From NCBI GenBank assembly GCA_041661005.1, contig JBAZVG010000001.1, positions 403,307 to 467,306 of the forward strand: a stretch of DNA of 64,000 nucleotides, given 5' to 3'. This stretch comes from Minisyncoccota bacterium. Its GTDB lineage: Bacteria; Patescibacteriota; Minisyncoccia; Phycocordibacterales; UBA9973. Each line of letters starts with the position of its first letter. The first letter of the stretch is position 1. Of this stretch, positions 8,761-63,419 are shown one piece after another. A program made the position numbers and the translations under genes. The notes under the pieces are model-generated. The model did not search any database. It was not told the origin of the DNA and worked only from the letters and a program-made list of their open reading frames with translations.

Positions 8761-8792
8761 ACCATAATAGACACGACCGTGTCTATTATGGT
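8761..8792. promoter_or_regulatory. 32-bp palindrome ACCATAATAGACACG-AC-CGTGTCTATTATGGT, 13 nt upstream of the PaaX-like gene start
   Basis: Perfect 15-bp arms. TATTAT inside the right arm is a possible -10. A near-identical copy lies 3' of the same gene at 9391..9422. Confidence 0.55.
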
Positions 8793-8804
8793 AACATATA
8801 AAAT

Positions 8805-9365
8805 ATGCGCTTAATTGATCAAGAGTCTAATTCAGGCAAAATAATCCGCGCGCTTGGTATCGGGATAGGGATATCCGTGGCACTAGGAAATAGGAGAACA
8901 AGCTATAAAATGACAAAAACATTAATTAAAGAAATTTTTGGTTTAAATAAACAACCCAAAAATTATTCTAGATATTTTTCTAAACTGAGAAAACAAAAGT
9001 TTGTATGTATTAAGAAAATTGACAGTGATCACATTGTGTCTCTCACAGAAAAAGGCAGAGAAGTTTTTTTAAGATTTAATTACGAAAACTTGGAAATAAA
9101 AAGAAGTAAAATATGGGATAGGAACTTTCGCATGGTTGTCTTTGATATTCCAGAAATAAAAAGAAATGCCAGAGATTCACTTCGAGATAAACTGAAAGAA
9201 ATGGGTTTGGTAAAATTCAACGATAGTGTTTGGATATATCCGTTCCCCTGCCAGCAAGAAATTGATTTTATTGCCAATTATTGGAATATAGGAAAATATG
9301 TGCATTTTGCTTTAGTTAAAAATATAACCAATAGAGATTACTTAGAAAGGTATTTTAATTTATAG
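8805..9365 (+). CDS. PaaX-like transcriptional regulator, short form (paralog 1)
   Basis: Winged-helix region (KQKFVCIKKIDSDHIVSLTEKGREVF) followed by a PaaX middle-domain-like block. IWDRNFRMVVFDIPE...LVKFNDSVWIYPFPC compares with E. coli PaaX AWDGKWLLLLSEGL...GFGALAPSLMASP. Confidence 0.5.
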   Translation: MRLIDQESNSGKIIRALGIGIGISVALGNRRTSYKMTKTLIKEIFGLNKQPKNYSRYFSKLRKQKFVCIKKIDSDHIVSLTEKGREVFLRFNYENLEIKRSKIWDRNFRMVVFDIPEIKRNARDSLRDKLKEMGLVKFNDSVWIYPFPCQQEIDFIANYWNIGKYVHFALVKNITNRDYLERYFNL

Positions 9366-9390
9366 ATATTTTTTCTTATATTTCATAAAT

Positions 9391-9422
9391 ACCACAATAA
9401 CCACGGCCGTGTCTATTGTGGT
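9391..9422. promoter_or_regulatory. Second copy of the paralog-1 palindrome, ACCACAATAACCACGG-CCGTGTCTATTGTGGT, 26 nt past the stop
   Basis: About 27/32 identical to the 8761..8792 site, itself an imperfect palindrome. It sits between convergent genes. Confidence 0.5.
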
Positions 9423-9452
9423 ATTAGTTTAACACCGCTAACATACTCCCTA

Positions 9453-20400: not shown

Positions 20401-20636
20401 TTAGAATTATTTTCATCTGTTTTGGATTCTCCAAGAGAAAAAGAAGTAAATTCAAGTTGAAACTTTTTTGTAGAATAGTCGCTGATGGGAGAAAATTCTT
20501 TGAAAACTTCCCCAATGCCTTTTTCAATTAACCATTTGAAACTTTTTACCTGTGCTTCAATTAAATTTGGAAATTCAACTAGAGGTTTTTTGTATCTTGA
20601 AAAATATTTCTTCGGACGCGAGGTTATCGTATGCAT
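17424..20636 (-). CDS. rpoB: DNA-directed RNA polymerase subunit beta RpoB
   Basis: Conserved beta-subunit blocks throughout. The start is taken at MHTITSRPKK. The upstream MFFFDFFF extension of the ORF is rejected. Confidence 0.95.
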   Translation of the reverse strand: MHTITSRPKKYFSRYKKPLVEFPNLIEAQVKSFKWLIEKGIGEVFKEFSPISDYSTKKFQLEFTSFSLGESKTDENNSKINKLSYQGLLKARVKLTNKILGTVKEQEIFMSELPLMTSHGTFIINGVERVIVPQLARSFGVFFTESESKGSRYFGAKIIPARGVWIEIESEADGGIYIRIDKKRKFPATALLRAMGYETNEEILKVFNSLATKAPSWLGDLTAKSVEETIKTCLLKDGVKSLNDSYIEIYKRLRDGDMATADNAREFINSLFTGERYDLSPVGRFRFNKRFDKPMDEVSLSKRTISKEDLVTVIMNIIVLNNTPDGKGDDIDHLGQRRVRFVGEILQQKVRTGMMQIKRNIQDRMSIVDVDTAMPIAIINQRPLQARIKEFFTTNQLSQFMAQENVLYEIEHLRTLSALGPGGLTRERAGLEVRDVHPSHYGRVCPIHTPEGPNIGLILHLSTYAKINDFGIIETPYVKVTKGRITGEVVYLNALEEEKYNIAHAGTPYDSKGNITEEKVEARIKTEPGAISRDEVDFIDVSPNQAFSIATSMIPFLEHNNANRALMGSNMQKQAVPCVLPEAPLVATGVEELAARDSGRLIIALEDGVVSYLDAKKITVKGVSEKTYNLVNFMRNNNFAVFHQRPLVNVGDKIKKGDVLADTSSTVGGQISLGQNIFVAFLSWSGSTYEDAIIVSERLVKKSKFTSVYVEEFTAIVRDTKLGPEITTRDIPNVGELKLKDLDEDGIVRIGAEVRENDILVGKITPKGETELTPEERLLRSIFAEKARDVKDTSLRVEHGKRGRIIGVKIFSRDLGHTLEAGIIKKIVIEVAQIRNISVGDKLSGRHGNKGVISTILPEEDMPYMADGTPVDVVLSPLGVPSRMNLGQILEMHLGMAANSLGYQAIVPPFLGAKHEEIEGELIKAGLPKNGKIKLFDGRTGEAFEQDVAVGYMYMLKLHHMVEDKIHMRSIGPYSLITQQPLGGKAQGGGQRFGEMEVWALEGYGAAYTLREMLTIKSDDILGRSATFDSIIKNETIRPPNSPASFNVLLNYLRGLALDVDLRKGVSKEI

Positions 20637-20868
20637 GTTTTTTTTACCTAAATAAACAAAAAAGAAATCAAAGAAAAACAAAGGGAAAAATGCTTTTCTT
20701 TAGCCTCTTAAAATATATTTAGAATGATTAAGTTAAAAACCTTGTAATATATACACAGGATTGCATCCGATACTCAATCAATGAATCAAATACACCCTAC
20801 TCTATTTGAACTTTTTTGTCAAATTTCCTTTGGGGATATTGCCTTATTGTAAATTACCCTTCTGATTA

Positions 20869-23397: not shown

Positions 23398-23500
23398 ATA
23401 AACATAATACATAAAAAAGAGCGAATACAAAAGTTTTCGCCTGGAGCAACTGGATTCTTCTTTGCTCCCAGAAAATTTTTGTATTCGCTCTTTTTAAAAA

Positions 23501-24342: not shown

Positions 24343-26487
24343 GTGAAAAACCAAATGAATAAAAAAGAGGGCCTCGCCCGTAGGCCTATGGCCGAGGGCA
24401 TTATATCCATTACCTCCAAAGGCACTGGATATGTTGCCATTGGGGACGCAAAAAACAAACAAGACCCAGAAATTGATTCCAAGTATTTGAATACTGCCCT
24501 GCATGGAGATCTAGTCGAAATTACCCTGCATCCAAAAGGTAAAGCAAGACAGACAGCTGAAGTTTCAAAAATAATCACCCGCGCGAAAATGCGTTTTGCT
24601 GGAGTTTTAGAATTAGACCCCACCAAGAACGGGGCAAGAAACAATATATTTTTCTTGAAACCAGATGATACAAAAATGTACACGGATATTCTAATACCCG
24701 AGGGAGAATTAAACGGAGCAAAGGCGGGACAAAAAGTCTTTGTGGAAATAACTTCTTGGACAGATGCAAGCAAAGCTCCTGTCGGAAAAGTAATCAAAAT
24801 TTTAGGAAATCCGGGAGATAATGACACAGAAATGCATTCTATCGCAATGGAAAAAGGATTCGATTCAGAATTACCCCAAGAAGTAGAGAACGAGGCCAGA
24901 GAAATAAAAATACGCGGTATAAAAGAAAGTGATTACGCATCGCGTCGCGATTTCAGAAAAACTTTAACTTTCACCATTGACCCCTCAGATGCAAAAGATT
25001 TCGATGATGCAATTTCGTTTCGAGTTATTAATTCCCCTCTTGAGGGGTGGCCGAAGGACGGGGTGGAAAATGCATCCACCTCCCTCCGACAAAAGTCGGA
25101 GTACTCCTCAAGAGGAGAATTGTACGAAATAGGCATACATATAGCAGACGTATCGCATTATGTAAAAATAGGCAGTGCTTTGGATGTCGAAGCGCGAGAA
25201 CGAGGAACTTCGGTTTATTTAGTGGATAGGACAATACCGATGTTGCCCGAGACATTATCAAATGATCTATGTAGCCTGGTACCCAATAAAGACAGACTCA
25301 CCATGAGCGCAGTTTTTATTATGGACAAAAATGCCAAAGTAAAAAATGAATGGTATGGCGCTACCATTATACATTCTCAAAAAAGATTTACTTATGAAGA
25401 AGCCGAGGAATCCCTCGGCCATAGCCCTACGGGCGAGGCAATCAAAAAACTGAATGCTCCCCTGCATAAAGAATTGTCTATTTTAAATGATCTGGCAAAA
25501 AAATTAACAAAAGAAAGATTTGATAACGGCGCCATATCGCTTGATCAGGAAGAAGTAAAATTTGTATTAGATAAGAATGGAACACCGATAAAAGTAATCA
25601 CAAAAGAGCGCGGAGATTCTAATAGATTAATTGAGGAATTCATGCTTCTTGCCAACAAAAGAGTGGCGAAGATTTTATCTCCCCAATCTTCCCGCAGTCA
25701 CCTATCTGGGAAAGAAGAAAATAATAATATTTCTATATACCGCGTGCATGATCTACCAAGCAAGGAAAAGATGGCAGATCTGGCATTTTTTCTGCGAAGT
25801 TTGGGACATAAAATATCTTTAGTAAACGGAGTCATACCCAGTCATGAAATAAATAATCTTCTAAAAAAATTAGAAGGAAAGAATGAGGAAAACACAGTGA
25901 ATCGCGCGGTGATACGCTCCATGGCAAAAGCGATTTATTCAACCAAAAACATCGGGCACTACGGACTCGCTTTTGAGCATTACACGCACTTCACTTCCCC
26001 GATCAGACGATACCCGGATATCATAGTGCACAGATTACTTGCCAATTTTCTTGCCGGTAAAAAAGTCGGCAAAGAAAAATTGCTTGAATATGAAAAAATC
26101 GCCAGAATTTCATCTGAACAGGAAAAACGCGCTTCCGATGCTGAACGAGCTTCCATCAAATATAAACAAGTTGAGTATATGTCGAAGCGTCTAGGAGAAA
26201 ATTTCGAGGGAATCATAAGTGGAATTACAGAGTGGGGCATTTATGTAGAAGAAACAGAAACGAAATGCGAAGGACTAGTGCGAATACGTGACATGAGCGA
26301 TGATTTTTATGTTTTTAATGAAAAGAAAATAGAATTAGTTGGACAAGGGAAGAAGTCCCGACGCCCTTCGGGGTCGGGATCCCGATCGCAAGCATCGGGA
26401 AAAAAATATCGACTAGGCGATCGTGTTAAGATAAAAGTAAAAGGAACTGATCTGGAGAAAAAAACAATAGACTACGTTTTATTATAG
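24343..26487 (+). CDS. rnr: Ribonuclease R (RNB family, VacB)
   Basis: RNB catalytic motif IGIHIADVSHYV and a C-terminal S1 domain. Carries a roughly 92-bp in-frame repeat-element insertion at 25029..25120. Confidence 0.85.
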   Translation: MKNQMNKKEGLARRPMAEGIISITSKGTGYVAIGDAKNKQDPEIDSKYLNTALHGDLVEITLHPKGKARQTAEVSKIITRAKMRFAGVLELDPTKNGARNNIFFLKPDDTKMYTDILIPEGELNGAKAGQKVFVEITSWTDASKAPVGKVIKILGNPGDNDTEMHSIAMEKGFDSELPQEVENEAREIKIRGIKESDYASRRDFRKTLTFTIDPSDAKDFDDAISFRVINSPLEGWPKDGVENASTSLRQKSEYSSRGELYEIGIHIADVSHYVKIGSALDVEARERGTSVYLVDRTIPMLPETLSNDLCSLVPNKDRLTMSAVFIMDKNAKVKNEWYGATIIHSQKRFTYEEAEESLGHSPTGEAIKKLNAPLHKELSILNDLAKKLTKERFDNGAISLDQEEVKFVLDKNGTPIKVITKERGDSNRLIEEFMLLANKRVAKILSPQSSRSHLSGKEENNNISIYRVHDLPSKEKMADLAFFLRSLGHKISLVNGVIPSHEINNLLKKLEGKNEENTVNRAVIRSMAKAIYSTKNIGHYGLAFEHYTHFTSPIRRYPDIIVHRLLANFLAGKKVGKEKLLEYEKIARISSEQEKRASDAERASIKYKQVEYMSKRLGENFEGIISGITEWGIYVEETETKCEGLVRIRDMSDDFYVFNEKKIELVGQGKKSRRPSGSGSRSQASGKKYRLGDRVKIKVKGTDLEKKTIDYVLL
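25029..25120 (+). repeat. GC-rich multi-hairpin mosaic element, copy A (in-frame within rnr)
   Basis: ATTCCCCTCTTGAGGGGTGG...GACGGGGTGGAAAATGCATCCACCTCCCTCCGACAAAAGTCGGAGTACTCCTCAAGAGGAGAAT. Five successive hairpins. Homologous copies at 56870, 63309(-) and 63812. Confidence 0.75.
26357..26400 (+). repeat. Two adjacent GC-rich hairpins inside the rnr C-terminal tail
   Basis: CCCGACGCCC-TTCG-GGGTCGGG and TCCCGAT-N8-ATCGGGA. They encode SRRPSGSGSRSQASG. Confidence 0.35.
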
Positions 26488-29044: not shown

Positions 29045-31207
29045 CTACTTCGCAATAGCAGTTGCTTCGTCGAATTTGACGGAGAGAAGTTTAGAGGCGC
29101 CATTTGCGCCTATTGTTACGCCATAGAGCACACCAGCACGGGACATCGTCTCGCGGTTGTGAGTAACAACGATGAGCTGAGAATGTTTGGATAATTTTTC
29201 CAACATATCGCCATATTTACGGGAATTTGATTCATCGAGAGCGGCATCCGTCTCATCGAGAACTAAAAATGGAGGCGGATTGACTTGTGACATAGCAAAA
29301 AGGAGGGCGATAGATGTGAGCGACCTCTCTCCACCGGAGAGAGCATGAAGCTCTTTGACTTTTTTATGCGGAAGTGAAACATTTATCTCTATTCCCTGTT
29401 CGAAAACAATTTCTTCCTTTGCCTCGCCGTAGCCTTCGGCGTAGGCGGGATCATCTTCCAATTCTTCCGGAACATTCTTTCTCTTTTTATTTTCAACAAC
29501 TATGGCAAGAGAACCTGTGCCACCACCAAACATCAGCGAGAAAAATTCTTGAAACTCCACATTTATTTTTTTCACACCTTCTTTAAATTCTATATCAATC
29601 TTTTCTTTCAAATCTGCTATAAGTTTCTGCAAAGATTCTATACTTTTAGTCAAATCTTCCATCTCTTTAGTCAAAAATTGATCCCTTTCAGACACTTCTT
29701 TGAATTCTTTCATCACTTCCGCGCCATTACCCATGCCCGCATCTTCCAACTTTATTTTTATGCGCTCAATTTTTCTCTTCTGCTCTTCTTGAGAAATTCC
29801 TGAATCAATTTCCGCCTCTTCAGCGGATCGCTGAAAAGACGATTTGTAAGATAAAATCTCTGATCCGATAAGCGCGACACCCTCTTTGATTTCATTGTCA
29901 AAGGCTTCAATTCTACTCTTCAAGTTTACTTCTTTAATACGCACAAATTCCAAAGCTGAGGATAATTCCTGATGTTTTACTTTGAAACTAAACTTCTCAC
30001 GTTCCAAATCACGCAAAGCTTCCATCTCCTCATTCAAGGCTTCTTTTAATTGCCTGATCTGGCTAGCAAGCTCTTTTTCTTTATTTTCCATTTCTCTCAT
30101 CTGTGCCAAAATGCCGGTCTGAGAATTTTTTAATTCAGACAATTCTTTCTCACCACTTTCCCTGTTTTCTAATTGCTCTTTGCTTATTTCCCCCAGTTCT
30201 CTGCCACATGTCGGACATCTGCCTGAAACCTTGGCTCTATTCTCTTTTGCTTCTATCATTCCCTCGATTCTGCCGAGTTTTCGCTCCATTTCACTTTTCA
30301 ATCCACGAATTTCATTCATCTGCCTCTCGATAATCTCCAATTCTTCTATTTTTGGATTTTCTTTGGCAGTATCAGCCCCTTCTGTGCTAGAAATTTTTGC
30401 GCTGATATTTTTAAGCTCGCTTGAAATTTCCCGATGCTCGACTGATAAATCGTTTTTTTCTTTTTCCAGATAAATACTTTCTTTTTTGAGATATTCTCTA
30501 TATAAAGTTGCCAACTCCCTCTGCATTTCTTTGGCTTTCTCAAATTTCTCAACCTGTTTCTTTAAAAAATTTAAATGAGGAGCATTCTCCCTGCGCAACA
30601 TGACAACCTCTTTCATGTTATTTTCTGTTTTTTCTAATTTCCTGACGGATTCTTTTATTTTATATTGAAAAATTTTGAGCCCCAATGCGTCTTCCACCAT
30701 TTCTTTTCGATCTTTTGGACTTGCATTTAAAATCCTGTCAGCTTCACCTTGGGAAATAATATGGTGCCCGCTTGAACCAATATTCACTGACGCCAAAAGA
30801 TTATGAATATCTCTCAAACGCACTTCTGTGCCATTCAAGATATATTTATTCAACCCATCTGAAAAAACTTCGCGAGAAATACTGATTGTTTCATAATTTA
30901 AATTTATGTTTTCTCCCCCATCGTTTTCAAGCTTGAAAACTTTATCCGAATTGTTGAAATATATAGTGACAGTAGCGCGCGACCCCTTGGGAAGATTCTT
31001 TGACCCTTTGAAAATCAAATCAGAACCGGATTTCCCGCGCATTGATTTCATTGACTGTTCGCCTAAAACATAGCGAATAGCTTCTACCACATTTGACTTG
31101 CCAGAGCCATTCGGACCCACTACGCAAACAACGGGATTTTCAAATTCCAAAGTTGTTTTTTGGGAAAAAGACTTAAAGCCATTTAGTTCTAATGTTTTTA
31201 GTCGCAT
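29045..31207 (-). CDS. smc: SMC-family chromosome segregation ATPase, short form with CxxC zinc hook
   Basis: SMC head (LNGFKSF, GPNGSGKSN, LSGGERSL, LVLDETDAALDE). Roughly 400-aa coiled coil with CPTCGREL at its midpoint. Conserved rnc-smc neighbourhood. Confidence 0.7.
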   Translation of the reverse strand: MRLKTLELNGFKSFSQKTTLEFENPVVCVVGPNGSGKSNVVEAIRYVLGEQSMKSMRGKSGSDLIFKGSKNLPKGSRATVTIYFNNSDKVFKLENDGGENINLNYETISISREVFSDGLNKYILNGTEVRLRDIHNLLASVNIGSSGHHIISQGEADRILNASPKDRKEMVEDALGLKIFQYKIKESVRKLEKTENNMKEVVMLRRENAPHLNFLKKQVEKFEKAKEMQRELATLYREYLKKESIYLEKEKNDLSVEHREISSELKNISAKISSTEGADTAKENPKIEELEIIERQMNEIRGLKSEMERKLGRIEGMIEAKENRAKVSGRCPTCGRELGEISKEQLENRESGEKELSELKNSQTGILAQMREMENKEKELASQIRQLKEALNEEMEALRDLEREKFSFKVKHQELSSALEFVRIKEVNLKSRIEAFDNEIKEGVALIGSEILSYKSSFQRSAEEAEIDSGISQEEQKRKIERIKIKLEDAGMGNGAEVMKEFKEVSERDQFLTKEMEDLTKSIESLQKLIADLKEKIDIEFKEGVKKINVEFQEFFSLMFGGGTGSLAIVVENKKRKNVPEELEDDPAYAEGYGEAKEEIVFEQGIEINVSLPHKKVKELHALSGGERSLTSIALLFAMSQVNPPPFLVLDETDAALDESNSRKYGDMLEKLSKHSQLIVVTHNRETMSRAGVLYGVTIGANGASKLLSVKFDEATAIAK

Positions 31208-46637: not shown

Positions 46638-46724
46638 TGGAGGCGTCGCATAGCGGTCTAGTGCACCACCTTGGAAAGGTGGCAGGCTCGAAAGGGTCTC
46701 GAGAGTTCAAATCTCTCCGCCTCC
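46638..46724 (+). tRNA. tRNA-Ser (anticodon GGA)
   Basis: 7-bp acceptor stem GGAGGCG/CGCCTCC, a 3-bp D stem, anticodon stem CCACC/GGTGG with loop TTGGAAA, a long variable arm and a T arm GAGAG-TTCAAAT-CTCTC. No encoded CCA. Confidence 0.8.
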
Positions 46725-46763
46725 GCAAAAATTTTACATTATCGAAAAAAATAATTCTTGTAG

Positions 46764-48338: not shown

Positions 48339-50528
48339 TCACATAGAGAGCAATTCCAAAAATTCTCTTTCATTTACTATTTTTACTCCTAATTTTTCCG
48401 CAGTTTTAAGTTTAGAACCCGGCTCAACTCCAGCGACCACATAAGAAGTATTTTTTGAAACTGAACCCACGACCTTTCCACCCAGAGAAATTATTTTTTC
48501 TTTGGCTATCTCGCGCGACATAAGAGAAAGCGTCCCCGTCAAAACAAAATTAAGTCCTCTTAATTTACCTGTCTTCTTTGCAAGATTCTCTTGCATTTTT
48601 TCTACAACCACACCGTTTCTTTTTAATTTGTCTATAAAATTTATATTATTCTTGTCATGAAAAAAATCAGAAAAGCTCTTTGACACGGCTGGTCCTATAT
48701 TTTCTATGCTATCTACCTCGGATGTTTCAGTTTTCGTGGAGGAGATTAATTTATCTAAAGTTCCGAAATGTTCCGCCAAATCTCGAGCAGTCTCCTCCCC
48801 CACATGCAATATTCCAAGAGCCCAAAGAAATTTTGAAAAAAGAATTTTCTTTTTGTTATTTATTTCTTTTATAATATTCTCCGCTGATTTTTCTCCAAAG
48901 CGCTCTAGGGGCGCGATGTCTTCTTTTAGAAGTGTGAAAATATCCGCCGCGTCAGTGATCAATCCTTCGTCTTTAAAACGTCTTAAAATTTTTGGGCCTA
49001 GTTCGTATATTTCAAACACTGACACAAAATGTTCTAAATATCTTTCATTCTTGGCCGGACACTTAGAATTAGCACAATAATAGGCGACAGAAGGCGAAGC
49101 TGGAGAAAGGTTTTCGAGCTGGTCTGGCCGGGGTTTGGGGCCCCGGGGAACCGAGGACCCGAGAAAATCTTTCTCCAGCTTCGCCCCTATATCTCTCTTC
49201 TCCACTATTCCCCCACAAGCAGGACAACCCGTCGGCATTTTAAATTTTTTCTCTTTGCCGGTGCGCATACGAGTCAACACTTCCACGACTTTTGGAATCA
49301 CGTCGCCAGCTTTTTCTATCACTACAGTATCCCCGATTCGTAGATCAAGACGATCTATTTGATCCATATTGTGCAAGGTGGCTTTTGATACCGTAGAACC
49401 TGCGACGAGCGTCGGTTTAAAAATTGCCAGTGGCGTCAAAACTCCAGTCCTGCCTACATTGACCAAAATTTCTTTTATCACAGTCGTTGCTTTCTCAGCC
49501 GGATATTTGAATGCCACCATATAACGCGGAGCTTTACCGACAACGCCTAAAACCTCTTGCAATTTCAAATCATCCACCGATATTACTATGCCATCCGTGC
49601 CATATGAAAAATCAGATCTTATTTTTTCGAATTTTTTTATAAAATTCGCGACTTCATCCAAATTTTTACATAACGCCTCATTTTGTTCTACTTGAAAACC
49701 TAAATTTTTTAAAAAATTATGCTTGTCTGAATGAAGGCGCAAATTTGGTAAAGAATTCAAGGAGCCGTGGGTCCCCTGTCCTTTGTCTCCGAGGGCGAAG
49801 GCGGGAGAATTCTTTACCAAATTTGCGCCAACCAAATCAACCAAATCATAAGCAAAAAAATCCAGCTTCCTTTCAGCCGCCAATTTAGGATCCAACTGCC
49901 GTAGACTCCCAGCCGCCGCATTTCTGGTATTAGCAAAAAGAGGTTTGCCTTCTTTCTCATTTTTAAGATTCAATTTTGATAAAGTTTTTTTAGAAATCAA
50001 AGCTTCTCCACGAACTTCGAAATACTTTGGAAATGGTTTCTTTAATATTAACGGAATCGAATTTATAGTTTTAAGATTCTCAGTAATGTCTTCACCCACA
50101 AAACCATCTCCCCTTGTGGCGCCACGCACAAATTTTCCATCTTCATAAATTAACGAAACCGCCAGTCCATCGAATTTAACTTCGCAGAAATAACTCACCC
50201 CGTGTGCTTGCAGAGGTAAAAGTTTTTTGATTCTTTTCTCCCAATCCTGAAGCTCCTCGTAAGAAAAAACATCATTCAAAGAAAGCATCCTGCTGTTGTG
50301 CTTCACTTTCACAAATTTATCAAGCGGTTTTCCAGCTACTCTATTCTCCGGCGCATTGACATCGTCAAATTCAGGATGCTCTTCTAGAAGCATTTTAAGC
50401 TCGCGAGTGAGAGAATCATAAACGTCATCAGTAACGTTCGGAGCATTTTCTGTGTGATAGGCATTCCGCAATCGCGCGATTTCGCTTCGCAATTTTTCTA
50501 TTCTCTTTTTTGCTTCAAGCCTGTCCAT
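48339..50528 (-). CDS. ligA: NAD-dependent DNA ligase LigA
   Basis: Adenylation domain, Cys4 zinc finger, HhH and C-terminal BRCT. Carries a 93-bp in-frame palindromic insertion between the zinc-finger Cys pairs. Confidence 0.9.
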   Translation of the reverse strand: MDRLEAKKRIEKLRSEIARLRNAYHTENAPNVTDDVYDSLTRELKMLLEEHPEFDDVNAPENRVAGKPLDKFVKVKHNSRMLSLNDVFSYEELQDWEKRIKKLLPLQAHGVSYFCEVKFDGLAVSLIYEDGKFVRGATRGDGFVGEDITENLKTINSIPLILKKPFPKYFEVRGEALISKKTLSKLNLKNEKEGKPLFANTRNAAAGSLRQLDPKLAAERKLDFFAYDLVDLVGANLVKNSPAFALGDKGQGTHGSLNSLPNLRLHSDKHNFLKNLGFQVEQNEALCKNLDEVANFIKKFEKIRSDFSYGTDGIVISVDDLKLQEVLGVVGKAPRYMVAFKYPAEKATTVIKEILVNVGRTGVLTPLAIFKPTLVAGSTVSKATLHNMDQIDRLDLRIGDTVVIEKAGDVIPKVVEVLTRMRTGKEKKFKMPTGCPACGGIVEKRDIGAKLEKDFLGSSVPRGPKPRPDQLENLSPASPSVAYYCANSKCPAKNERYLEHFVSVFEIYELGPKILRRFKDEGLITDAADIFTLLKEDIAPLERFGEKSAENIIKEINNKKKILFSKFLWALGILHVGEETARDLAEHFGTLDKLISSTKTETSEVDSIENIGPAVSKSFSDFFHDKNNINFIDKLKRNGVVVEKMQENLAKKTGKLRGLNFVLTGTLSLMSREIAKEKIISLGGKVVGSVSKNTSYVVAGVEPGSKLKTAEKLGVKIVNEREFLELLSM
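49092..49184. repeat. 93-bp GC-rich palindromic element inserted in-frame in the ligA zinc-finger loop
   Basis: Perfect 17-bp terminal inverted repeats GGCGAAGCTGGAGAAAG / CTTTCTCCAGCTTCGCC flanking a GC-rich core. Encodes AKLEKDFLGSSVPRGPKPRPDQLENLSPASP. Confidence 0.75.
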
Positions 50529-52861: not shown

Positions 52862-53734
52862 CTAAAAATTAAAAAGATTTAATTCAAAAATAAATGCCAA
52901 AAATGTTCCTAGAACCAAAAATGGAGCAAATGGAATTTCGCTTTTCATCCCCATACTGTTTATTCTACCATTTTTTGCCAGCCTCGCCGAGTCTAGGCGG
53001 GCCAGCCTCGCCGAGTCTAGGCGGGAAAGAACTACAAGCGTCACCCCGACGACAGCTCCAGACCAGAAAGCCATCACCAAACCAGATAGAGCAACAGAAA
53101 TACCGAGCAACCATCCGATGCCTAGAGAGAGCTTTGCATCCCCCAGCCCCATCCACCTGCCACGAGATATAAACCAAAAGAAAGCAAACGGGAATGCTAT
53201 GAACACACCAGAAAGAAATTCCCAAACAGTCGGGATTTGAAAATATAAAACGATAGGATTGGAAGAATCTAAAAAATTATTATGGAAAAAAAATAAACCC
53301 AGAAATGCCAGAACGCCGAAAATAAGAGAAAGCATGTCCGGAATTATTTTATGTTTCAGATCATAAGTCGCTATGACCACAAGCAGTGAAAACGCAGTTG
53401 CATAGTAAACATAAATGATGCCGAAAGATTGAATGTCTGCCAGAAAAATATCCTGGAATTTCAAAAACAGCAAAGCGAAAACGAGGCCTGTTGTAAATTC
53501 AACCAAAGGATATTGCATGGAAATTTTGGTTTTACAATTCCGGCACCTCCCCCCGAGCCATAGAAAGCTAACGACAGGTATGAGATCATACCAATGGAGT
53601 TTATTTTGGCAAGACATGCAGGCGCTCCGCCCGCCGAGAGATCTTTTTGTGTTGAGTCGATAAATTACAACATTCAAAAAACTGCCAATAGTGAGACCGA
53701 GAACAAAGAAAAAAAACCCAAGTAATAAAATCAT
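52862..53734 (-). CDS. pilD: Prepilin peptidase (A24 family)
   Basis: N-terminal Cys4 (CMSCQNK...CRNCKTK) and conserved catalytic Asp regions (DLKHKIIPD, GLGDAKL). Contains a 24-bp x2 in-frame tandem repeat. Confidence 0.85.
   Translation of the reverse strand: MILLLGFFFFVLGLTIGSFLNVVIYRLNTKRSLGGRSACMSCQNKLHWYDLIPVVSFLWLGGRCRNCKTKISMQYPLVEFTTGLVFALLFLKFQDIFLADIQSFGIIYVYYATAFSLLVVIATYDLKHKIIPDMLSLIFGVLAFLGLFFFHNNFLDSSNPIVLYFQIPTVWEFLSGVFIAFPFAFFWFISRGRWMGLGDAKLSLGIGWLLGISVALSGLVMAFWSGAVVGVTLVVLSRLDSARLARLDSARLAKNGRINSMGMKSEIPFAPFLVLGTFLAFIFELNLFNF
52977..53024. repeat. Perfect 24-bp tandem duplication (GCCAGCCTCGCCGAGTCTAGGCGG x2) in-frame within pilD
   Basis: GC-rich. Encodes LARLDSAR twice near the PilD C-terminus. 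Confidence 0.7.
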
Positions 53735-54793: not shown

Positions 54794-56194
54794 ATGGAAA
54801 AAACTAACGAAAAAATAACTACTGTGTGTATACCGACCTGCAACAGGCCAGAATTTTTGCATAGAGCCCTCATTGGTCTTGTAGAAAACCTGAAAAAATA
54901 TGGCCGTGCTCCGCGCATCTTGGTTATAGATGATTCCGAGGAACCACAAAATGCTCAAAAAACAAGAGAAATTTGTAGCTCACATGGGGCTAATTATCAG
55001 GGAAAAATTGAGTGCATGGATAGAAATGATCGCGCAGAGATGGCAAAAATACTCGCAAAAGAAAAAGGGGTGTCTCTCGAGGTTCTTAATTTTGCTTTAT
55101 GCGGGGATAAACTATCTACAACAACAGCAGGAGCAGTCCGAAACACCTTCCTATTAAAAACACGAGGTGAAAAAATACTTATAGTGGATGATGATGTGGT
55201 TTATAATTTTTTTTCTCCAATTTTTGAAGAACCGCCACTTTTTAGTATCGAAAATCCCCTTGAATATTGGTTCCTAGAGGGTGATGAAACACCACCAACT
55301 TCTTTATTTAAACCTGTTGAGGTTGATTTGCTAGATATCCATGAAAGTATGCTTGGTAAAAAAGCTGGTGAGATACTAGGTCAAAATATTCCAGATGATA
55401 TGAAAGGTATGGAAATAATGGACACATATATGGGAGCCTATGGGGATTCTCCCATGGAATCACATATCCCCCTACTCCTTTTACCTCAAGTCTATGAGAA
55501 ATTTAAAAACATTTCTCCAATCCAATATAAAGCAATTAAGGGAACTAGAAAAATCATTCAAGTTCCTTTTTCTACGACGGTTTATCAAGGACCTATCTGC
55601 ACTTCAATGGTTGTGGGAATAGATAATCGTCAACTTCCTCCACCATTCATACCGATAGGCAGAGCACAAGATCTCGTATTTGGAACTACACGATGGACTG
55701 CTTTTCCTTCAAAACTTTCTGTATATCTTCCCATTCTCATAGGACACGAGAGACCTGATAAAAAAATCCAGTCTGCAGTATACAACAGTGTACATGAGGT
55801 AACAAAAATAAACAGAATTATAGCTAACTTCATAGAAGAGGAAATAAACAATGTTAATATAAACTCAAGTGAGAATTTACAGATAATTGGAAATAAATTT
55901 ATCAACATCGCTCAAAAATCAGAGTCCGAGTTCTCGCTCTTTATGGAAACTCAATGTCAAAAAATCACCAAAATAGTAACAGATCATGTAAATAACATAC
56001 TTAAAAATAGTCCTGAGATGCCTGATTTTTGGATAAGCGATATGAATTCTATGATAAGCGAACTTGAATTTTCAGATCCTAAATTTTTTATGGACAATAT
56101 AACAAAAAGTCCTAATAAAAATAGACTGACAATCCTTCAAAAATGGATGGGGTTATATGGCCAATTGCTACAAGTCTGGTATAAGTTGTTATAG
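54794..56194 (+). CDS. Putative family-2 glycosyltransferase-like protein
   Basis: N-terminus TVCIPTCNRPEFL...ILVIDDSEE and later ILIVDDDVV (DxD-like). Weak assignment. Confidence 0.4.
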   Translation: MEKTNEKITTVCIPTCNRPEFLHRALIGLVENLKKYGRAPRILVIDDSEEPQNAQKTREICSSHGANYQGKIECMDRNDRAEMAKILAKEKGVSLEVLNFALCGDKLSTTTAGAVRNTFLLKTRGEKILIVDDDVVYNFFSPIFEEPPLFSIENPLEYWFLEGDETPPTSLFKPVEVDLLDIHESMLGKKAGEILGQNIPDDMKGMEIMDTYMGAYGDSPMESHIPLLLLPQVYEKFKNISPIQYKAIKGTRKIIQVPFSTTVYQGPICTSMVVGIDNRQLPPPFIPIGRAQDLVFGTTRWTAFPSKLSVYLPILIGHERPDKKIQSAVYNSVHEVTKINRIIANFIEEEINNVNINSSENLQIIGNKFINIAQKSESEFSLFMETQCQKITKIVTDHVNNILKNSPEMPDFWISDMNSMISELEFSDPKFFMDNITKSPNKNRLTILQKWMGLYGQLLQVWYKLL

Positions 56195-56272
56195 AGGTTT
56201 CTCAATGACAAAAAAACCATCGTCGAAGATGGTTTTTTTGTAGAAATTATTAATTTCACTAAACGAATTTTA

Positions 56273-56704
56273 TTAACTAGCAGCACAAACAGTTGCATCA
56301 GCACCCTTGCCGCCCGTCCTAACTCCAGAGAAACCAGCACTGTCAACACAGAATATTGTTCCATCATTCAAAGTTGCCTCTGCAGCCCAAGCACTGTATG
56401 GCGCAGCAGCTGGAACATCACAATTAACCGCACCAGCAGCAGGAATCTGAGCGTTTACAGCTACAATCAGTCTATTTAATTGACCAGCAGCACCACACAG
56501 TGTTGATGGATAATTTCCACTGGAATCAACAACCAATTCAGCCTCCGCTCTCATGGAAGTCATACTTGCCTTTGCACTTGCATCTTTACCCTTTGTTCTA
56601 GCCGTATTAAGCGACGCCAAAACGACCGAAGCCAAAATACCAATGATAGCCACGACCACCAAAAGCTCAATCAATGTAAAACCTTTCTTTAAATTCATTT
56701 TCAT
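56273..56704 (-). CDS. pilA: Type IV major pilin
   Basis: KKGFTLIELLVVVAIIGILASVVLASL prepilin motif. 143 aa with a C-terminal Cys pair. Confidence 0.8.
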   Translation of the reverse strand: MKMNLKKGFTLIELLVVVAIIGILASVVLASLNTARTKGKDASAKASMTSMRAEAELVVDSSGNYPSTLCGAAGQLNRLIVAVNAQIPAAGAVNCDVPAAAPYSAWAAEATLNDGTIFCVDSAGFSGVRTGGKGADATVCAAS

Positions 56705-56869
56705 AATTAAATTCTAAACTAAATTAATAATAATTAATAATGCAATTTCGACTCCCGCCTGCTCCCATAGGGCGGACAGGTATTTTTAATACAACTATTA
56801 TAACATTATGCAAAAACATTTATGCAACCAAGTTATCCACACCCCTTCGCCAAGGCTACGGAGGTGCAG

Positions 56870-57033
56870 GCAGGGTAGTGATTCCCCTCTTGAGGGGTGG
56901 CTCGCTTACGAGACGGGGTGGAAGAATTCCCTCACCCCTTGCTTTCCCCTCTCCATTCAAAAGAATGGAGAGGGGTTGGGGAGAGGGTATCCACCTCCCT
57001 CCGACCTAGGTCGGAATACTCCTCAAGAGGAGA
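56870..57033 (+). repeat. GC-rich multi-hairpin mosaic element, copy B (expanded, intergenic pilA/pilC)
   Basis: ATTCCCCTCTTGAGGGGTGG-CTCGCTTACGAG-ACGGGGTGGA, an extra CCCCTCTCC...GGAGAGGGG module, then TCCACCTCCCTCCGACCTAGGTCGGAATACTCCTCAAGAGGAGAAT. Confidence 0.75.
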
Positions 57034-57042
57034 ATTAAAATT

Positions 57043-58251
57043 CTAGCTAATACTTCCTGCTAGATTGTAAATTGGCATGAGGACAGACACGAGCAATATT
57101 CCAACGCCCAAGCCCAAAACCACGATCATCACCGGCTCGATGAGTCCTACCAGCGTATCCACCGCATCATCCACTTCACGCCGATAAAAATCAGTTAAAG
57201 TTTTCAAAATAGACACGAGAGAACCCGTCTCCTCGCCCACCTGAATCATCTGCACCAGAATGCCGGGTATTTCAACTTTATGTTTCGCAAATGCGACAGA
57301 GAGCGTCAATCCGGATTTCACCCCATCCGCGACTTCCGCTAAAATGCCTTTATACACACGACTGCCGACAACTTCAGCGGTAATGTCTATCGCTCGAACG
57401 ATAGGAACTCCGGAGCTCAACATGGTGCTCAGGTTGTCTGATATTCGAGAAAGATAAAGCTTTTTATACAAATTGCCAATAGCGGGCATGGAAAGTTTCA
57501 ATGAATCGAGATATTGTTTCCCCTTTTCGGTCATAGCCATTTTCCAAACCCAAATACCGAGCAAGACTAAAAAAATCAAAAAGAAAAAACCATAGTGGAC
57601 GAACAGATTTGAAATTGCTATGACTACCTTGGTGTAAAAAGGAATATCTTGACCGGAATCTAAAATAATCTCAGAAAGTTTTGGAATCACCACCACAAAC
57701 ATCAAAGTCATAACCACGAAAAAGGTAACAACGACGAAAACTGGATAGATAAGGGCATTTCTGGTCTTGGAGGTAAGAGAATATTGGCGATCTAAATATT
57801 CCGCCAAATATATAAACGTCTGATTGAGTTTTCCGGTTTCCTCTCCCACTTTGACCATGTTTATATAAAAATTCGAAAATACATCTGGATGTCTTGCGAG
57901 TGCTCCAGAAATGGAAATACCAGCTTGGAGATCGTCACTGACGGCAGTCAATTTGCGACCTAAAAGCTTGTTTTCTGTATTGGCCGCCAACATGGTAAAA
58001 GATTTCAAGGCAGAAACTTGCGCCTCAAACAACGTCGCGATCTGACGTGAGAGAATGACCACATCCTTATTCGAGACTCTCTCAAAAAAAGAGATCTGGA
58101 AAATTGATTTACTTTCCTTTTCGTCTTTGATGGAAATAATCACAAGCCCCCTTCTCTGAAGCCCAGAGACCGCCATGTCATGACTCGGCGCGTCGATTTG
58201 CCCTTCTTTTGTTGTCCCTTCAGAATCTATTGCTTTGTATTTAAAAAGCAT
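57043..58251 (-). CDS. pilC: Type IV pilus assembly platform protein PilC (GspF family)
   Basis: 402 aa with two GspF-type domains and three TM helices. Confidence 0.85.
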   Translation of the reverse strand: MLFKYKAIDSEGTTKEGQIDAPSHDMAVSGLQRRGLVIISIKDEKESKSIFQISFFERVSNKDVVILSRQIATLFEAQVSALKSFTMLAANTENKLLGRKLTAVSDDLQAGISISGALARHPDVFSNFYINMVKVGEETGKLNQTFIYLAEYLDRQYSLTSKTRNALIYPVFVVVTFFVVMTLMFVVVIPKLSEIILDSGQDIPFYTKVVIAISNLFVHYGFFFLIFLVLLGIWVWKMAMTEKGKQYLDSLKLSMPAIGNLYKKLYLSRISDNLSTMLSSGVPIVRAIDITAEVVGSRVYKGILAEVADGVKSGLTLSVAFAKHKVEIPGILVQMIQVGEETGSLVSILKTLTDFYRREVDDAVDTLVGLIEPVMIVVLGLGVGILLVSVLMPIYNLAGSIS

Positions 58252-62604: not shown

Positions 62605-63246
62605 TTAGCTTTCTTGCGTTAAGATCGTTTGCTTATAATCAACAAAAGATGGATCGACTGAAAATTCTAAATCAAAAAGGACATTACCCTTGTCATCCAG
62701 AGTAAGATTGGAAAAAACAGGATCGATAAAATTCTTACCTTCGTCCTTGGTGGTAAAAAGATCGGATTGTAGAGCCACCGAACGATAGCCGACTGCAGTG
62801 CCACTCATTTTAATAAGAACCTTGGAATTTTTTGTGTCTTTTTCATTCCCGCCTTGACTCGACGAGTCAGGTCCAAAACTATAACTAAATCTAGTGTAAC
62901 GAACAGTCTTCATAGTAATGGCAGAAAGCGCCTCAAAAATAGGAGTTATCGCAATATGTTTGGACAAGATTTCAGTTGACGCCCGCAAGCGCCTGTCTAA
63001 AACCTGAAGCTCGGTTATCTTGGAAGGCTCGAAACGATTTCTGGCTAAAGTTAAATCATTTTCCATTTTGACAATGTCTTTCGCTAAAATACCTTTATAG
63101 AAAAAAAGTCCACCGGTCGCGAGCAACACAGAAAACAAAATAAAAAAAGAAATAACCGTAAAAAAACCAATAGATCGCGTCGTAACGACACGCTCTACCA
63201 CCATCGGTTTTTTAGGGATAAATGATGTTTGGAAATTCGGCTCCAT
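62605..63246 (-). CDS. pilN: PilN-like pilus assembly protein
   Basis: N-terminal basic segment and TM helix (IGFFTVISFFILFSVLL) followed by a coiled coil. Confidence 0.5.
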   Translation of the reverse strand: MEPNFQTSFIPKKPMVVERVVTTRSIGFFTVISFFILFSVLLATGGLFFYKGILAKDIVKMENDLTLARNRFEPSKITELQVLDRRLRASTEILSKHIAITPIFEALSAITMKTVRYTRFSYSFGPDSSSQGGNEKDTKNSKVLIKMSGTAVGYRSVALQSDLFTTKDEGKNFIDPVFSNLTLDDKGNVLFDLEFSVDPSFVDYKQTILTQES

Positions 63247-63308
63247 ACTACACTACTATTATATTATAAAAACAAATTATAATGAAGTAAAATGTGTATA
63301 ACTCAACA

Positions 63309-63419
63309 TCCACCCCGCATTCATTCTCCTCTTGAGGAGTACTCCGACCTAGGTCGGAGGGAGGTGGAAATGCATCCACCCCGTCTCGGATTACCGAGCC
63401 ACCCCTCAAGAGGGGAATT
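63309..63419 (-). repeat. GC-rich multi-hairpin mosaic element, copy C (minus orientation)
   Basis: The reverse complement reads ATTCCCCTCTTGAGGGGTGG-CTCGGTAATCCGAG-ACGGGGTGGATGCATTTCCACCTCCCTCCGACCTAGGTCGGAGTACTCCTCAAGAGGAGAATGAATGCGGGGTGGATG. It supplies the last codons and the TGA stop of the DUF559 gene. Confidence 0.75.

What the first reader, a model, noticed from the sequence alone, without database searches (positions are those of the whole stretch)
49092..49184. Exact 93-bp palindromic insertion in the zinc-finger loop of LigA, keeping the reading frame
Perfect 17-bp terminal inverted repeats GGCGAAGCTGGAGAAAG ... CTTTCTCCAGCTTCGCC enclose a GC-rich core (CCGGGGTTTGGGGCCCCGGGG...). 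The total is 93 bp, or 31 codons, encoding AKLEKDFLGSSVPRGPKPRPDQLENLSPASP.

The insertion sits between the two Cys pairs of the LigA Cys4 zinc finger: CPACGGIVEKRDIG[insert]SVAYYCANSKCPA. Removing it restores the canonical 13-residue spacing seen in other LigA proteins.

This element belongs to a different sequence family from the CCCCTCTTGAGGGG element. The genome therefore tolerates at least two kinds of in-frame palindromic insertions in essential genes.
Basis: seen in the sequence. Interest (0 to 1): 0.75.

Follow-up and report, generated by a model that had tools for sequence, protein, structure and literature searches.

The report
Mobile hairpin insert in DNA ligase
The palindrome in the zinc finger of this bacterium's DNA ligase is real and is a small selfish DNA element read through as an extra protein loop, and its long arms were copied from the ligase gene itself at insertion rather than carried by the element, which known elements of this kind do not do.

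Summary
The palindrome is real, at 49093-49185 (one base off). It has 17 perfect arm pairs, 22 of 23 overall, and a 47-nt GC-rich centre, inside ligA (48339-50528, minus strand) between the two Cys pairs of the zinc finger.

It is not a 93-bp element. The mobile part is a 59-nt unit, ATTTTC...GAAAAC (49110-49168). This unit is 58/59 identical to copies in unrelated metagenome loci that have completely different arms. Among 71 copies, core anchors are 97% identical; outer arms are 29% identical and AT-rich like the host.

In the closest insert-free ortholog (L011), the upstream arm (G-A-K-L-E-K-D-F) is native ligase sequence. The net insertion is therefore 24 codons (72 nt, 49092-49163): the unit plus a reverse-complement copy of the adjacent flank.

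ligA holds a second such element of another family (49736-49829). In 79 Nomurabacteria orthologs, 35 carry a zinc-finger insert from about eight families, and sister taxa differ.

In-gene copies always keep the frame. AlphaFold gives pLDDT below 50 only for the two inserts.

The closest known relatives are Rickettsia palindromic elements. The target-derived inverted repeat looks new, and I found no report of it. A fold-back copying mechanism is inferred, not shown.

The parts
48339..50528 (-). ligA, NAD-dependent DNA ligase, 729 aa, the host gene
   Evidence: ORF. Pfam adenylation, OB, HhH and BRCT domains. Match to E. coli LigA 2OWO at E = 3e-142. Identical to P0001, named LigA by NCBI and JGI.
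49093..49185 (-). Palindrome 1 (the finding): 93 bp, arms 23 nt (22/23 paired, outer 17 perfect), 47-nt GC-rich centre
   Evidence: No stop codon in any of the six frames.
49169..49185 (-). Upstream arm in the coding sense (outer 17 nt, within G448-K453). This is native ligase sequence and the template of the duplication.
   Evidence: Codon alignment with the empty-site ortholog L011: GGG GCG AAG CTG GAG AAA GAT TTT against GGA ATG AAG TCG GGG GAG GAC TTT. L011 retains 21 nt between the palindrome's outer borders.
49110..49168 (-). 59-nt mobile unit of family B, subfamily B1: ATTTTC-TCGGGTCCTCGG-TTCCCCGGGGCCCCAAACCCCGG-CCAGACCAGCTC-GAAAAC. It has an imperfect 6-nt terminal inverted repeat, and the arm mismatch (A/C) belongs to the unit.
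   Evidence: 58/59 identical to L126 and 57/58 identical to L090, which have unrelated arms. Consensus of 71 copies.
49093..49109 (-). Downstream arm in the coding sense (within L474-P479): a new, perfect reverse-complement copy of 49169-49185
   Evidence: Absent from empty-site orthologs. The 17-mer has no other copy in the window.
49092..49163 (-). Net inserted DNA relative to the L011-type empty site: 72 nt = 24 codons, L456-P479 (LGSSVPRGPKPRPDQLENLSPASP). Four T of the unit's left end overlap the native GAT TTT.
   Evidence: with arithmetic: 59 + 17 - 4 = 72.
49736..49829 (-). Palindrome 2 in the same gene: 94 bp, arms 23/23, 48-nt core of family A (TCCCGCCTTCGCCCTCGGAGACAAAGGACAGGGGACCCACGGCTCCTT), residues G234-L265 in a loop of the adenylation domain
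   Evidence: The core is 48/48 identical to L027 at a different ligA site with different arms. Twelve copies all have different arms. Here the downstream arm matches native L004 at 25 of 33 nt, so the new arm is the upstream one.

Best explanation
The 93-bp palindrome is a composite.

Shown:
- A 59-nt GC-rich, hairpin-forming, non-autonomous mobile unit (family B, ATTTTC...GAAAAC) sits in ligA just upstream of the codons for S-V-A-Y-Y-C.
- It is followed by a 17-nt perfect reverse-complement copy of the ligase sequence that precedes it.
- The unit's own short inverted ends plus this target-derived duplication make the 23-nt stem.
- The net gain is 72 nt (24 codons). The unit has no stop codon in any frame.
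- The gene stays open and the insert is predicted to be a disordered loop at the tip of the zinc-finger beta-hairpin.
- Elements of this kind, in at least five core families, are scattered through housekeeping genes and short intergenic spacers of Nomurabacteria/Paceibacteria. They turn over quickly and repeatedly hit the same permissive loops.

Inferred mechanism:
1. A 3' DNA end at the target (a stalled nascent strand or a break) pairs by 4-6 nt of microhomology (TTTT(C) here, GAATTC in families A and C) with the end of a donor copy.
2. It copies the unit.
3. The unit's inverted ends snap back, so the 3' end primes on its own strand and copies about 15-25 nt of flank.
4. Synthesis then returns to the original template.

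A dedicated enzyme that recognises the conserved core is an equally open possibility. The element most likely has no function for the host and is tolerated selfish DNA.
For: Core conserved, arms not:
- A metagenome scan with the core pattern gave 91 hits. About 85 of the 90 readable hits have flanking inverted repeats of 13-30 nt, different at nearly every locus.
- Core anchors are 97% pairwise identical, against 29% for the outer 12 nt of the arms. Core G+C is 0.78, against 0.345 for the arms.
- The window's unit is 58/59 identical to L126 and 57/58 to L090, which have unrelated arms.
- Families A, C, D and E show the same pattern.

One arm is native:
- This holds in codon-level comparisons WIN/L011, L074/L028, L015/L018 and L022/L046. 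In L017 the arm covers the conserved N-V-E-K.
- Across 43 elements with empty-site orthologs, the empty sites retain a median of 18.5 nt, against a median arm of 21 nt.
- There is no direct target duplication.

Independent, repeated insertion:
- 35 of 79 LigA orthologs carry a zinc-finger insert from about eight families.
- Sister taxa differ: L003 has family D and L007 has B; L015 has C and L018 is empty; L002 is empty and L004 has D.

Translated rather than spliced:
- 52 of 75 unique family-B copies lie wholly within open frames of at least 150 codons, in both orientations and all phases.
- The other 23 fill intergenic spacers, and none breaks a gene.
- AlphaFold2 gives pLDDT below 50 only for residues 233-259 and 448-479.

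Microhomology at junctions: native GAC TTT TCC in L011 against unit ATTTTC; native GAA AAT TCT in L004 against unit GAATTC.

Fold-back templated inverted duplications of 5-34 bp are documented at DNA breaks in yeast (PMC11724301, listed).
Against: - No filled/empty pair is closer than about 87% nucleotide identity, so the exact inserted block is inferred through diverged, naturally length-variable loops.
- The side on which the new arm lies is not constant. It is downstream for palindrome 1 and upstream for palindrome 2.
- In one subfamily the same inner arm layer occurs in Pol I and in UvrB, which I identified by eye from its sequence. Arms can therefore also travel with the element.
- Subfamily B2 is seen only in the LigA zinc finger.
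- Coreless palindromes occur at the same hot spots, which allows a two-step origin.
- The very high core conservation (97%) is not needed by a pure template-switch mechanism. It hints at a sequence-specific protein that I did not identify.
- No transcript, protein or population data were available.
Confidence: 0.72

Rival explanations
1. This is a conventional miniature inverted-repeat or RPE-type element of 93 bp. Both 17-23-nt arms are element-borne terminal inverted repeats, inserted whole into the zinc-finger loop.
For: Removing all 31 codons leaves 15 residues between Cys2 and Cys3, close to the 14 of E. coli LigA. In subfamily B-ii, arm layers of about 10 nt are shared between copies in different proteins, Pol I and UvrB. 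The CCCCTCTTGAGGGG family in the same window does have conserved arms.
Against: The 17-mer has no other copy in the window. Among 71 copies of the same core, arms are 29% identical, which is the random level, and have host-like G+C. Units 58/59 identical to this one have unrelated arms. The upstream arm aligns with native sequence of L011, and empty sites retain about one arm length.
Confidence: 0.06
2. The origin has two steps. A fold-back inverted duplication of the loop arises first and makes a coreless palindrome. GC-rich cores then home into the loops of pre-existing hairpins, or swap within them.
For: Coreless perfect palindromes sit at the same hot spots. Examples are L011 and L018 at site 235, L024/L078 and L058 in the zinc finger, and many more inside ORFs. 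L114 and L119 have the same arms with the core flipped. Different core families occupy the same site.
Against: The closest empty-site relatives of filled sites (L028, L018 at the zinc-finger site, L046, L011 at the zinc-finger site) have no palindrome there. L058's 20-nt palindrome equals both arm ends of its relatives' element and is equally well read as a footprint of core loss by a 3-nt slippage. About 85 of 90 cores have arms, but hairpin targeting does not explain why the arms equal the local flank.
Confidence: 0.15
3. The hairpin is a functional, selected structure, such as an mRNA stem that regulates ligA translation or decay, or a protein-binding DNA site, or a lineage-specific functional LigA loop. 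The arms co-vary because the stem is under selection.
For: The fold is very stable, z = -5.9 to -8.2. Arms differ between orthologs yet stay complementary: WIN/L002, the B2 series, L126/L090. Cores are more conserved than the flanking coding DNA even though they encode a disordered loop.
Against: The same core sits in at least a dozen unrelated proteins and in intergenic spacers, in both orientations and all three phases. Arm mismatches show no excess of G.U-compatible pairs on the mRNA strand, 17 against 28. 42 of 79 orthologs lack any insert, and sister taxa carry different families. Some arms have visibly decayed, for example L008, L014 and L033. The insert has pLDDT below 50.
Confidence: 0.06
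4. The insert is removed or skipped before the protein is made, either as an intron-like RNA excision guided by the stem or by ribosomal bypassing as with mitochondrial byp elements.
For: It is a long perfect stem flanking a GC-rich core in an AT-rich genome, which resembles byps and GC clusters by analogy only.
Against: Every one of the 52 in-gene copies keeps the frame and is free of stops, and no copy interrupts a gene out of frame. An element removed before translation would not need that. No Rfam family matches at the gathering score.
Confidence: 0.02

Closest known systems
Rickettsia palindromic elements (RPE; Ogata et al. 2000, as summarised in PMC10969869)
   Same: Both are short palindromic repeats in a small, AT-rich genome of a host-dependent bacterium. 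Both occur in several families and insert in frame into unrelated housekeeping genes. Both are translated as extra surface segments that leave the fold intact, and both lack a coding capacity of their own.
   Different: RPEs are about 100-150 bp, and each family has a conserved sequence, and a conserved peptide, over its whole length. Here only a 45-60-nt core is conserved, and the outer 13-30 nt of each arm are a copy of the local target. The host phylum (Patescibacteria/CPR) and the sequences are unrelated.
Bacterial MITEs (Correia, ERIC, RUP, BOX and others)
   Same: Both are small, non-autonomous, multi-copy and able to form hairpins. Both sometimes lie in genes in frame.
   Different: MITEs have family-specific terminal inverted repeats and direct target-site duplications made by a parent transposase. 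Here the long arms are locus-specific, there is no direct duplication, there is an inverted duplication of the flank, and no parent IS was found.
Templated inverted (fold-back) duplications at DNA breaks and template-switch mutations (yeast: PMC11724301, PMC7467729)
   Same: Both produce a reverse-complement copy of 5-34 nt of the immediately adjacent sequence, use microhomology and are independent of a transposase. The coreless palindromes in these genomes look like exactly this.
   Different: Those events have no conserved, horizontally recurring core. Here a specific 59-nt unit is always at the tip of the fold-back, so the process propagates a sequence.
REP / REPIN elements mobilised by RAYT transposases
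   Same: Both are short GC-rich hairpins present in many copies. The intergenic copies here sit right after stop codons, as REPs do.
   Different: REP stems are conserved in sequence and the elements are extragenic. No RAYT was looked for beyond this window.
Mitochondrial GC clusters, byp elements and double-hairpin elements of fungi (from my own knowledge)
   Same: Both are GC-rich palindromic mobile clusters in AT-rich genomes, and both are found inside coding regions.
   Different: Byps are bypassed by the ribosome and need take-off and landing codons. The elements here are simply in frame and stop-free, and target-derived arms are not a described feature of those elements.

Membership tests
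Rickettsia palindromic elements (RPE) | In-frame insertion into unrelated protein-coding genes with the reading frame preserved | tested here: met
   52 of 75 family-B copies lie wholly within open frames of at least 150 codons. Hosts include LigA, Pol I, RNase R, UvrD, GatA, MnmA, ThrRS, IscS-like and CCA-adding enzymes.
Rickettsia palindromic elements (RPE) | Family consensus conserved over the whole element, including the palindromic arms (a conserved encoded peptide) | tested here: not met
   Only the core is conserved (97%). The outer arms are 29% identical.
Rickettsia palindromic elements (RPE) | Sequence homology to RPE-1 to RPE-10, and occurrence in Rickettsia | not testable with these tools
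   No RPE sequences were available to compare. The host here is Candidatus Nomurabacteria/Paceibacterota.
MITE (miniature inverted-repeat transposable element) | Terminal inverted repeats that are the same in all copies of a family | tested here: inconclusive
   A short 5-7-nt inner inverted repeat (TTTTC/GAAAA, GAATTC) is family-specific. The long outer arms are not.
MITE (miniature inverted-repeat transposable element) | Direct target-site duplication flanking the element | tested here: not met
   Direct repeats of 2-5 nt occur at about the chance rate: 11, 4, 0 and 1 of 75 observed, against 6.1, 2.3, 0.7 and 0.3 expected.
MITE (miniature inverted-repeat transposable element) | A parent autonomous IS with matching ends | not tested
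   Only a 64-kb window and flanks of loci were held. No systematic transposase search was done.
REP/REPIN | Extragenic location and conserved palindromic stem | tested here: not met
   About 70% of copies are intragenic and the stems are variable.
Fold-back templated inverted duplication (mutational process) | New DNA is the reverse complement of the immediately adjacent flank | tested here: met
   WIN/L011, L074/L028, L015/L018, L022/L046 and L017. Empty sites keep a median of 18.5 nt against a median arm of 21 nt.
Fold-back templated inverted duplication (mutational process) | No foreign sequence at the turn, only a short spacer | tested here: not met
   A conserved 45-65-nt core is at the turn. 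Coreless cases also exist.
Known structured RNA families (Rfam 15) | Match at or above the gathering score | tested here: not met
   There are only weak generic hairpin (miRNA-precursor) hits at 19-25 bits, against thresholds of 47-230. The whole window yields only one tRNA.

The most novel reading that the evidence does not exclude
These elements may be a new class of mobile DNA that spreads without a classical transposase. A short GC-rich hairpin unit would be copied into a new site by template switching, and would build its own long stem at each insertion by fold-back synthesis on the target. That leaves an inverted, not direct, target duplication. The class would be widespread in CPR bacteria and would continually remodel surface loops of essential proteins.
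Probability: 0.4. Interest if true: 0.9.

Novelty: new variant of a known kind. Interest (0 to 1): 0.78.

Why it matters
In-frame selfish palindromes are so far a textbook peculiarity of Rickettsia. This work shows that they also pervade essential genes of CPR/Patescibacteria, including ligase, Pol I, RNase R, UvrB/UvrD and aminoacyl-tRNA synthetases.

The stem here is made from the target itself. An inverted target duplication is a footprint that no described prokaryotic transposition pathway leaves. It points either to a new enzyme or to propagation by replication template switching, and it gives a concrete sequence signature for searching.

There are three practical consequences:
- The inserts break domain models. 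PF03119 no longer hits insert-bearing LigA proteins.
- They inflate apparent protein divergence in CPR genomes.
- They provide fast-evolving presence/absence markers for strain tracking.

They are also natural experiments on which loops of essential enzymes tolerate 25-50 extra residues.

Tried and rejected
- **Rfam.** A permissive scan of ligA and a gathering-threshold scan of the whole window gave no family, only sub-threshold generic hairpins.
- **Phage origin.** The family-A and family-B core patterns have no match in IMG/VR.
- **mRNA-stem selection.** Arm mismatches are not enriched for G.U on the sense strand, 17 against 28.
- **Direct target duplications.** None above chance.
- **A fixed polarity rule ('the new arm is always downstream in the coding sense').** It holds at the zinc-finger site but fails for palindrome 2. 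Automated scoring was noisy, 16 against 9, because the loops are too diverged. I dropped the rule.
- **A 'ruler' on total length.** The arm-versus-loop anticorrelation (rho = -0.47) is partly an artefact of where a mismatch ends an arm, so I report only the span distribution: median 92, interquartile range 83-97.
- **Vertical inheritance of one old zinc-finger insert with co-evolving arms.** The LigA tree shows families scattered and sister taxa differing, so repeated independent insertion dominates. A few cases remain ambiguous: L126/L090, and subfamily B2 confined to LigA.
- **Literature.** Six full-text searches found no description of such elements in CPR and none of mobile elements with inverted target duplications.
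- **Filled/empty pairs.** A search for near-identical pairs among 171 loci found none closer than about 87%.
Full report
**1. The observation.** The 17-mer GGCGAAGCTGGAGAAAG lies at 49093-49109 and its exact reverse complement at 49169-49185. The palindrome is therefore 49093-49185, one base to the right of the coordinates given. The arms extend to 23 nt with a single mismatch and enclose 47 nt of 74% G+C, in a window of 37.7% G+C. None of 100 shuffles gave two matches to the 17-mer. The stem-loop folds at -58.7 kcal/mol on the mRNA strand (z = -5.9) and -62.2 on the other strand. The 93 bp contain no stop codon in any of the six frames.

The host ORF (48339-50528, minus strand, 729 aa) is a complete NAD-dependent DNA ligase. 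The alignment to E. coli LigA breaks exactly between the two Cys pairs of the zinc finger, at query residues 445/484, with C435/C438 and C485/C490. The identical protein is on record from an 813-kb contig of a Candidatus Paceibacterota MAG.

**2. A second element in the same gene.** ligA holds another palindrome at 49736-49829: arms 23/23 paired and a 48-nt GC-rich centre of unrelated sequence, sitting in a loop of the adenylation domain at residues 234-265. E. coli LigA also lacks this segment.

**3. Orthologs.** A scan of one genome per species returned 80 ligA loci, all Candidatus Nomurabacteria/Paceibacteria at 62-77% amino-acid identity. Ortholog lengths run from 663 to 758 aa. The extra residues fall at a few hot spots, after window residues ~105, 162, 235, 450 (the zinc finger), 543, 600-607 and 704.
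- In the zinc-finger loop, 35 of 79 sequences have an insert, 42 have none and 2 have a short palindrome.
- 27 of the 35 inserts are palindromes of 76-113 bp with arms of at least 13 nt.
- They belong to about eight unrelated core families. The same families turn up at other positions in other orthologs.
- In a distance tree of LigA the families are scattered and sister taxa differ: L003 has family D and L007 has B; L015 has C and L018 is empty; L002 is empty and L004 has D. The site is therefore hit repeatedly and independently.
- ligA makes up about 11% of the 1.5 Mb held but contains 39 of the 85 long hairpins found.

**4. The core is conserved and the arms are not.**
- Within each family the GC-rich core is nearly constant while the arms differ at every locus.
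- The window's family-A core (palindrome 2) is 48/48 identical to the copy in L027, which sits at another ligA site with other arms. Twelve family-A copies all have different arms.
- For family B, the family of the finding, a metagenome scan with GGTCCTCGGNTCNCCGGGGCCCC gave 91 hits. About 85 of the 90 readable hits are flanked by inverted repeats of 13-30 nt, different at nearly every locus.
- Over 71 unique copies the core anchors are 97% pairwise identical and the outer 12 nt of the arms 29% identical, the random level. Core G+C is 0.78 and arm G+C is 0.345, like the host.
- The conserved unit is about TTTTYTCR-GGTCCTCGG...CCAGACC-AYTCRAAAA.
- The window's 59-nt stretch ATTTTC...GAAAAC (49110-49168) is 58/59 identical to L126 and 57/58 to L090, whose arms are unrelated. 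The single arm mismatch of the window's palindrome (A opposite C) is part of that shared unit.
- The 17-mer has no other copy in the window.

**5. One arm is host sequence.** Codon-level comparison with the nearest insert-free orthologs shows that the arm upstream in the coding sense is the native loop.
- The window's G-A-K-L-E-K-D-F (GGG GCG AAG CTG GAG AAA GAT TTT) aligns with L011's G-M-K-S-G-E-D-F (GGA ATG AAG TCG GGG GAG GAC TTT). It is followed in both by S-V-A-Y-Y-C.
- The net difference is 24 codons (L456-P479, 49092-49163), and both proteins then have 22 residues between Cys2 and Cys3.
- The same holds for L074/L028, L015/L018 and L022/L046. In L017 the arm covers the invariant N-V-E-K of the finger.
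- For 43 elements with empty-site orthologs, the empty sites retain a median of 18.5 nt between the palindrome's outer borders, against a median arm of 21 nt. That is one arm, not zero.
- There is no direct target duplication.
- The arithmetic fits: 59-nt unit + 17-nt copy - 4 nt (the TTTT shared by the native GAT TTT and the unit's end) = 72.
- For palindrome 2 it is the downstream arm that matches native sequence, 25 of 33 nt to L004. The new arm can therefore lie on either side. The native site there carries GAAAATTCT, matching the unit's GAATTC end.

**6. The inserts are translated and tolerated.**
- Of 75 unique family-B copies, 52 lie wholly within open frames of at least 150 codons. Of these, 41 are sense and 11 antisense to the core, and all three phases are used.
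- The other 23 fill short spacers, typically starting within a few bases of a stop codon. None splits a gene out of frame.
- Hosts include the LigA zinc finger (12 cases), the Pol I linker (recurrent), UvrD/PcrA, GatA, MnmA, ThrRS, cysteine desulfurase, the CCA-adding enzyme and an FAD oxidase. RNase R (at the very loop that carries the window's CCCCTCTTGAGGGG element), UvrB, LeuRS and PheRS-beta were identified by eye from their sequences.
- AlphaFold2 on a 120-sequence alignment gives mean pLDDT 77.6. Only two segments fall below 50, residues 233-259 and 448-479, which are the two inserts. The second is held between strands 441-447 and 480-485.
- The Pfam zinc-finger model PF03119 hits only some homologs and does not hit the window protein.
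- Arm mismatches show no excess of G.U-compatible pairs on the mRNA strand (17 against 28), and some arms have decayed. Nothing therefore points to selection for an RNA stem.

**7. Complications.**
- In subfamily B-ii an inner arm layer (GCAAATCCAG-CAGAATTTTC) is shared by copies in Pol I and UvrB. Arms acquired at one site can travel on, giving nested layers.
- Subfamily B2 occurs only in the LigA zinc finger.
- L114 and L119 have the same arms with the core inverted.
- L058 has, at the zinc-finger site, the 20-nt palindrome CGGAAGTTTCC|AAACTTCCG. This equals the two arm ends of its relatives' element and is probably a footprint of core loss.
- Perfect short-loop palindromes are common inside ORFs of these genomes, 52 of 130 found.
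- Palindrome spans are narrowly distributed: median 92, interquartile range 83-97, n = 122.
- Cores are more conserved between genomes than the flanking coding DNA, which is 75-87% identical. This means either recent spread or a sequence-specific constraint.

**8. Mechanism.**

Shown: a conserved mobile unit, a locus-specific inverted copy of one flank, no direct duplication, short matches between the target and the unit's end, repeated independent insertion, and frame preservation.

Inferred: a 3' end at the target pairs with the end of a donor copy and copies the unit. It then snaps back through the unit's inverted ends, primes on its own strand to copy 13-25 nt of flank, and returns to the template. 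Fold-back templated inverted duplications of 5-34 bp are known at yeast breaks (PMC11724301, found). What is new here is a conserved passenger at the turn.

An unidentified enzyme that recognises the core remains possible, and the 97% core conservation even suggests one. So does a two-step route in which the palindrome arises first and the core arrives later.

**9. Comparison and novelty.**
- The closest known system is the Rickettsia palindromic elements: in-frame, translated, multi-family selfish palindromes in housekeeping genes (PMC10969869). The elements here work like RPEs at the protein level. They fail the RPE and MITE criterion of element-borne conserved arms, and the MITE criterion of direct target duplications.
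- No Rfam family matches and no copy occurs in IMG/VR.
- Six literature searches found no description in CPR bacteria and none of a mobile element that leaves an inverted target duplication.
- I file it as a new variant of a known kind, with a substantial chance (about 0.4) that the mechanism defines a new class.

**10. Verdict.** Interest is 0.78.

Noticed in passing
window 49736-49829: Second in-frame palindromic element in ligA: arms 23/23 and a 48-nt family-A core, residues 234-265 in a loop of the adenylation domain. Here the downstream arm appears to be the native one.
   Followed up: yes
window 25030-25121 (RNase R ORF 24343-26487, plus strand): A CCCCTCTTGAGGGG-family element lies in frame in RNase R (...DAISFRVINSPLEGWPKDGVENASTSLRQKSEYSSRGELYEIGIH...). 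The same loop of RNase R carries a family-B element in other genomes (L122, L146). This family has conserved arms, unlike families A-E.
   Followed up: partly
window 56881-57035 and 63323-63418: Two further CCCCTCTTGAGGGG-family inverted-repeat elements lie in the intergenic gaps 56194-57043 and 63246-63406.
   Followed up: no
window 23412-23497: An intergenic hairpin with 27-nt arms (TAAAAAAGAGCGAATACAAAAGTTTTC) and a 32-nt centre lies between a KH-domain gene and trmD. Its inner arm ends, GTTTTC/GAAAAT, resemble those of family B.
   Followed up: no
window 24369-24408, 25396-25443, 29413-29460, 10909-10948, 52968-53036: Short GC-rich palindromic islands share a GCCTCGCC...GGCGAGGC-like motif. 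Several lie inside ORFs, including two in RNase R, and 52968-53036 holds a tandem pair. They may be another small in-frame element family.
   Followed up: no
window 8761-8792 and 9388-9425: Two near-identical palindromes, ACCA(T/C)AATAGACACGG and its complement, lie 600 bp apart and flank the ORF 8805-9365. They could be an operator-like site or another repeat.
   Followed up: no
window 19792-19820: A perfect 13-nt-arm palindrome with a 3-nt loop (ACAGGAGAAAGAT cgt ATCTTTCTCCTGT) lies inside the 1085-aa ORF 17424-20681. It is one of many coreless in-ORF palindromes in these genomes.
   Followed up: partly
L011 10723-10768, L018 5082-5115, L020 10780-10825, L027 10719-10760, L029 10701-10742, L042 876-917, L050 10716-10763: Coreless or nested double-hairpin palindromes (arms 15-23 nt, loops 2-4 nt) lie in frame at ligA hot spot 235 in other species. 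They may be fold-back duplications without a core, or footprints of element loss.
   Followed up: partly
L011 11680-11722, L050 13830-13866, L051 14756-14784, L005 17387-17417: A mini-family has the conserved centre CGTTAGG-caaga-CCTAACG and locus-specific outer arms. This is the same architecture as families A-E at a smaller scale.
   Followed up: no
L006 and L016, zinc-finger loop of ligA (about 11340-11450): Two elements sit side by side in the same zinc-finger loop, giving loops of 84 and 76 aa. The site can therefore be hit more than once.
   Followed up: no
L058, zinc-finger site of ligA: The 20-nt palindrome CGGAAGTTTCC|AAACTTCCG equals the two outer arm ends of the element present in its closest relatives (L072, L127, L128). 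It is probably an excision or deletion footprint. My ORF call for L058 ligA was also short, at 539 aa.
   Followed up: partly
LigA homologs P0001-P0120: The Pfam zinc-finger model PF03119 is reported for only some homologs and not for the window protein. This fits such insertions breaking domain annotation, but I did not check insert status homolog by homolog.
   Followed up: partly
window 46639-46726: tRNA-Ser(GGA) is the only RNA gene detected in the 64-kb window.
   Followed up: no
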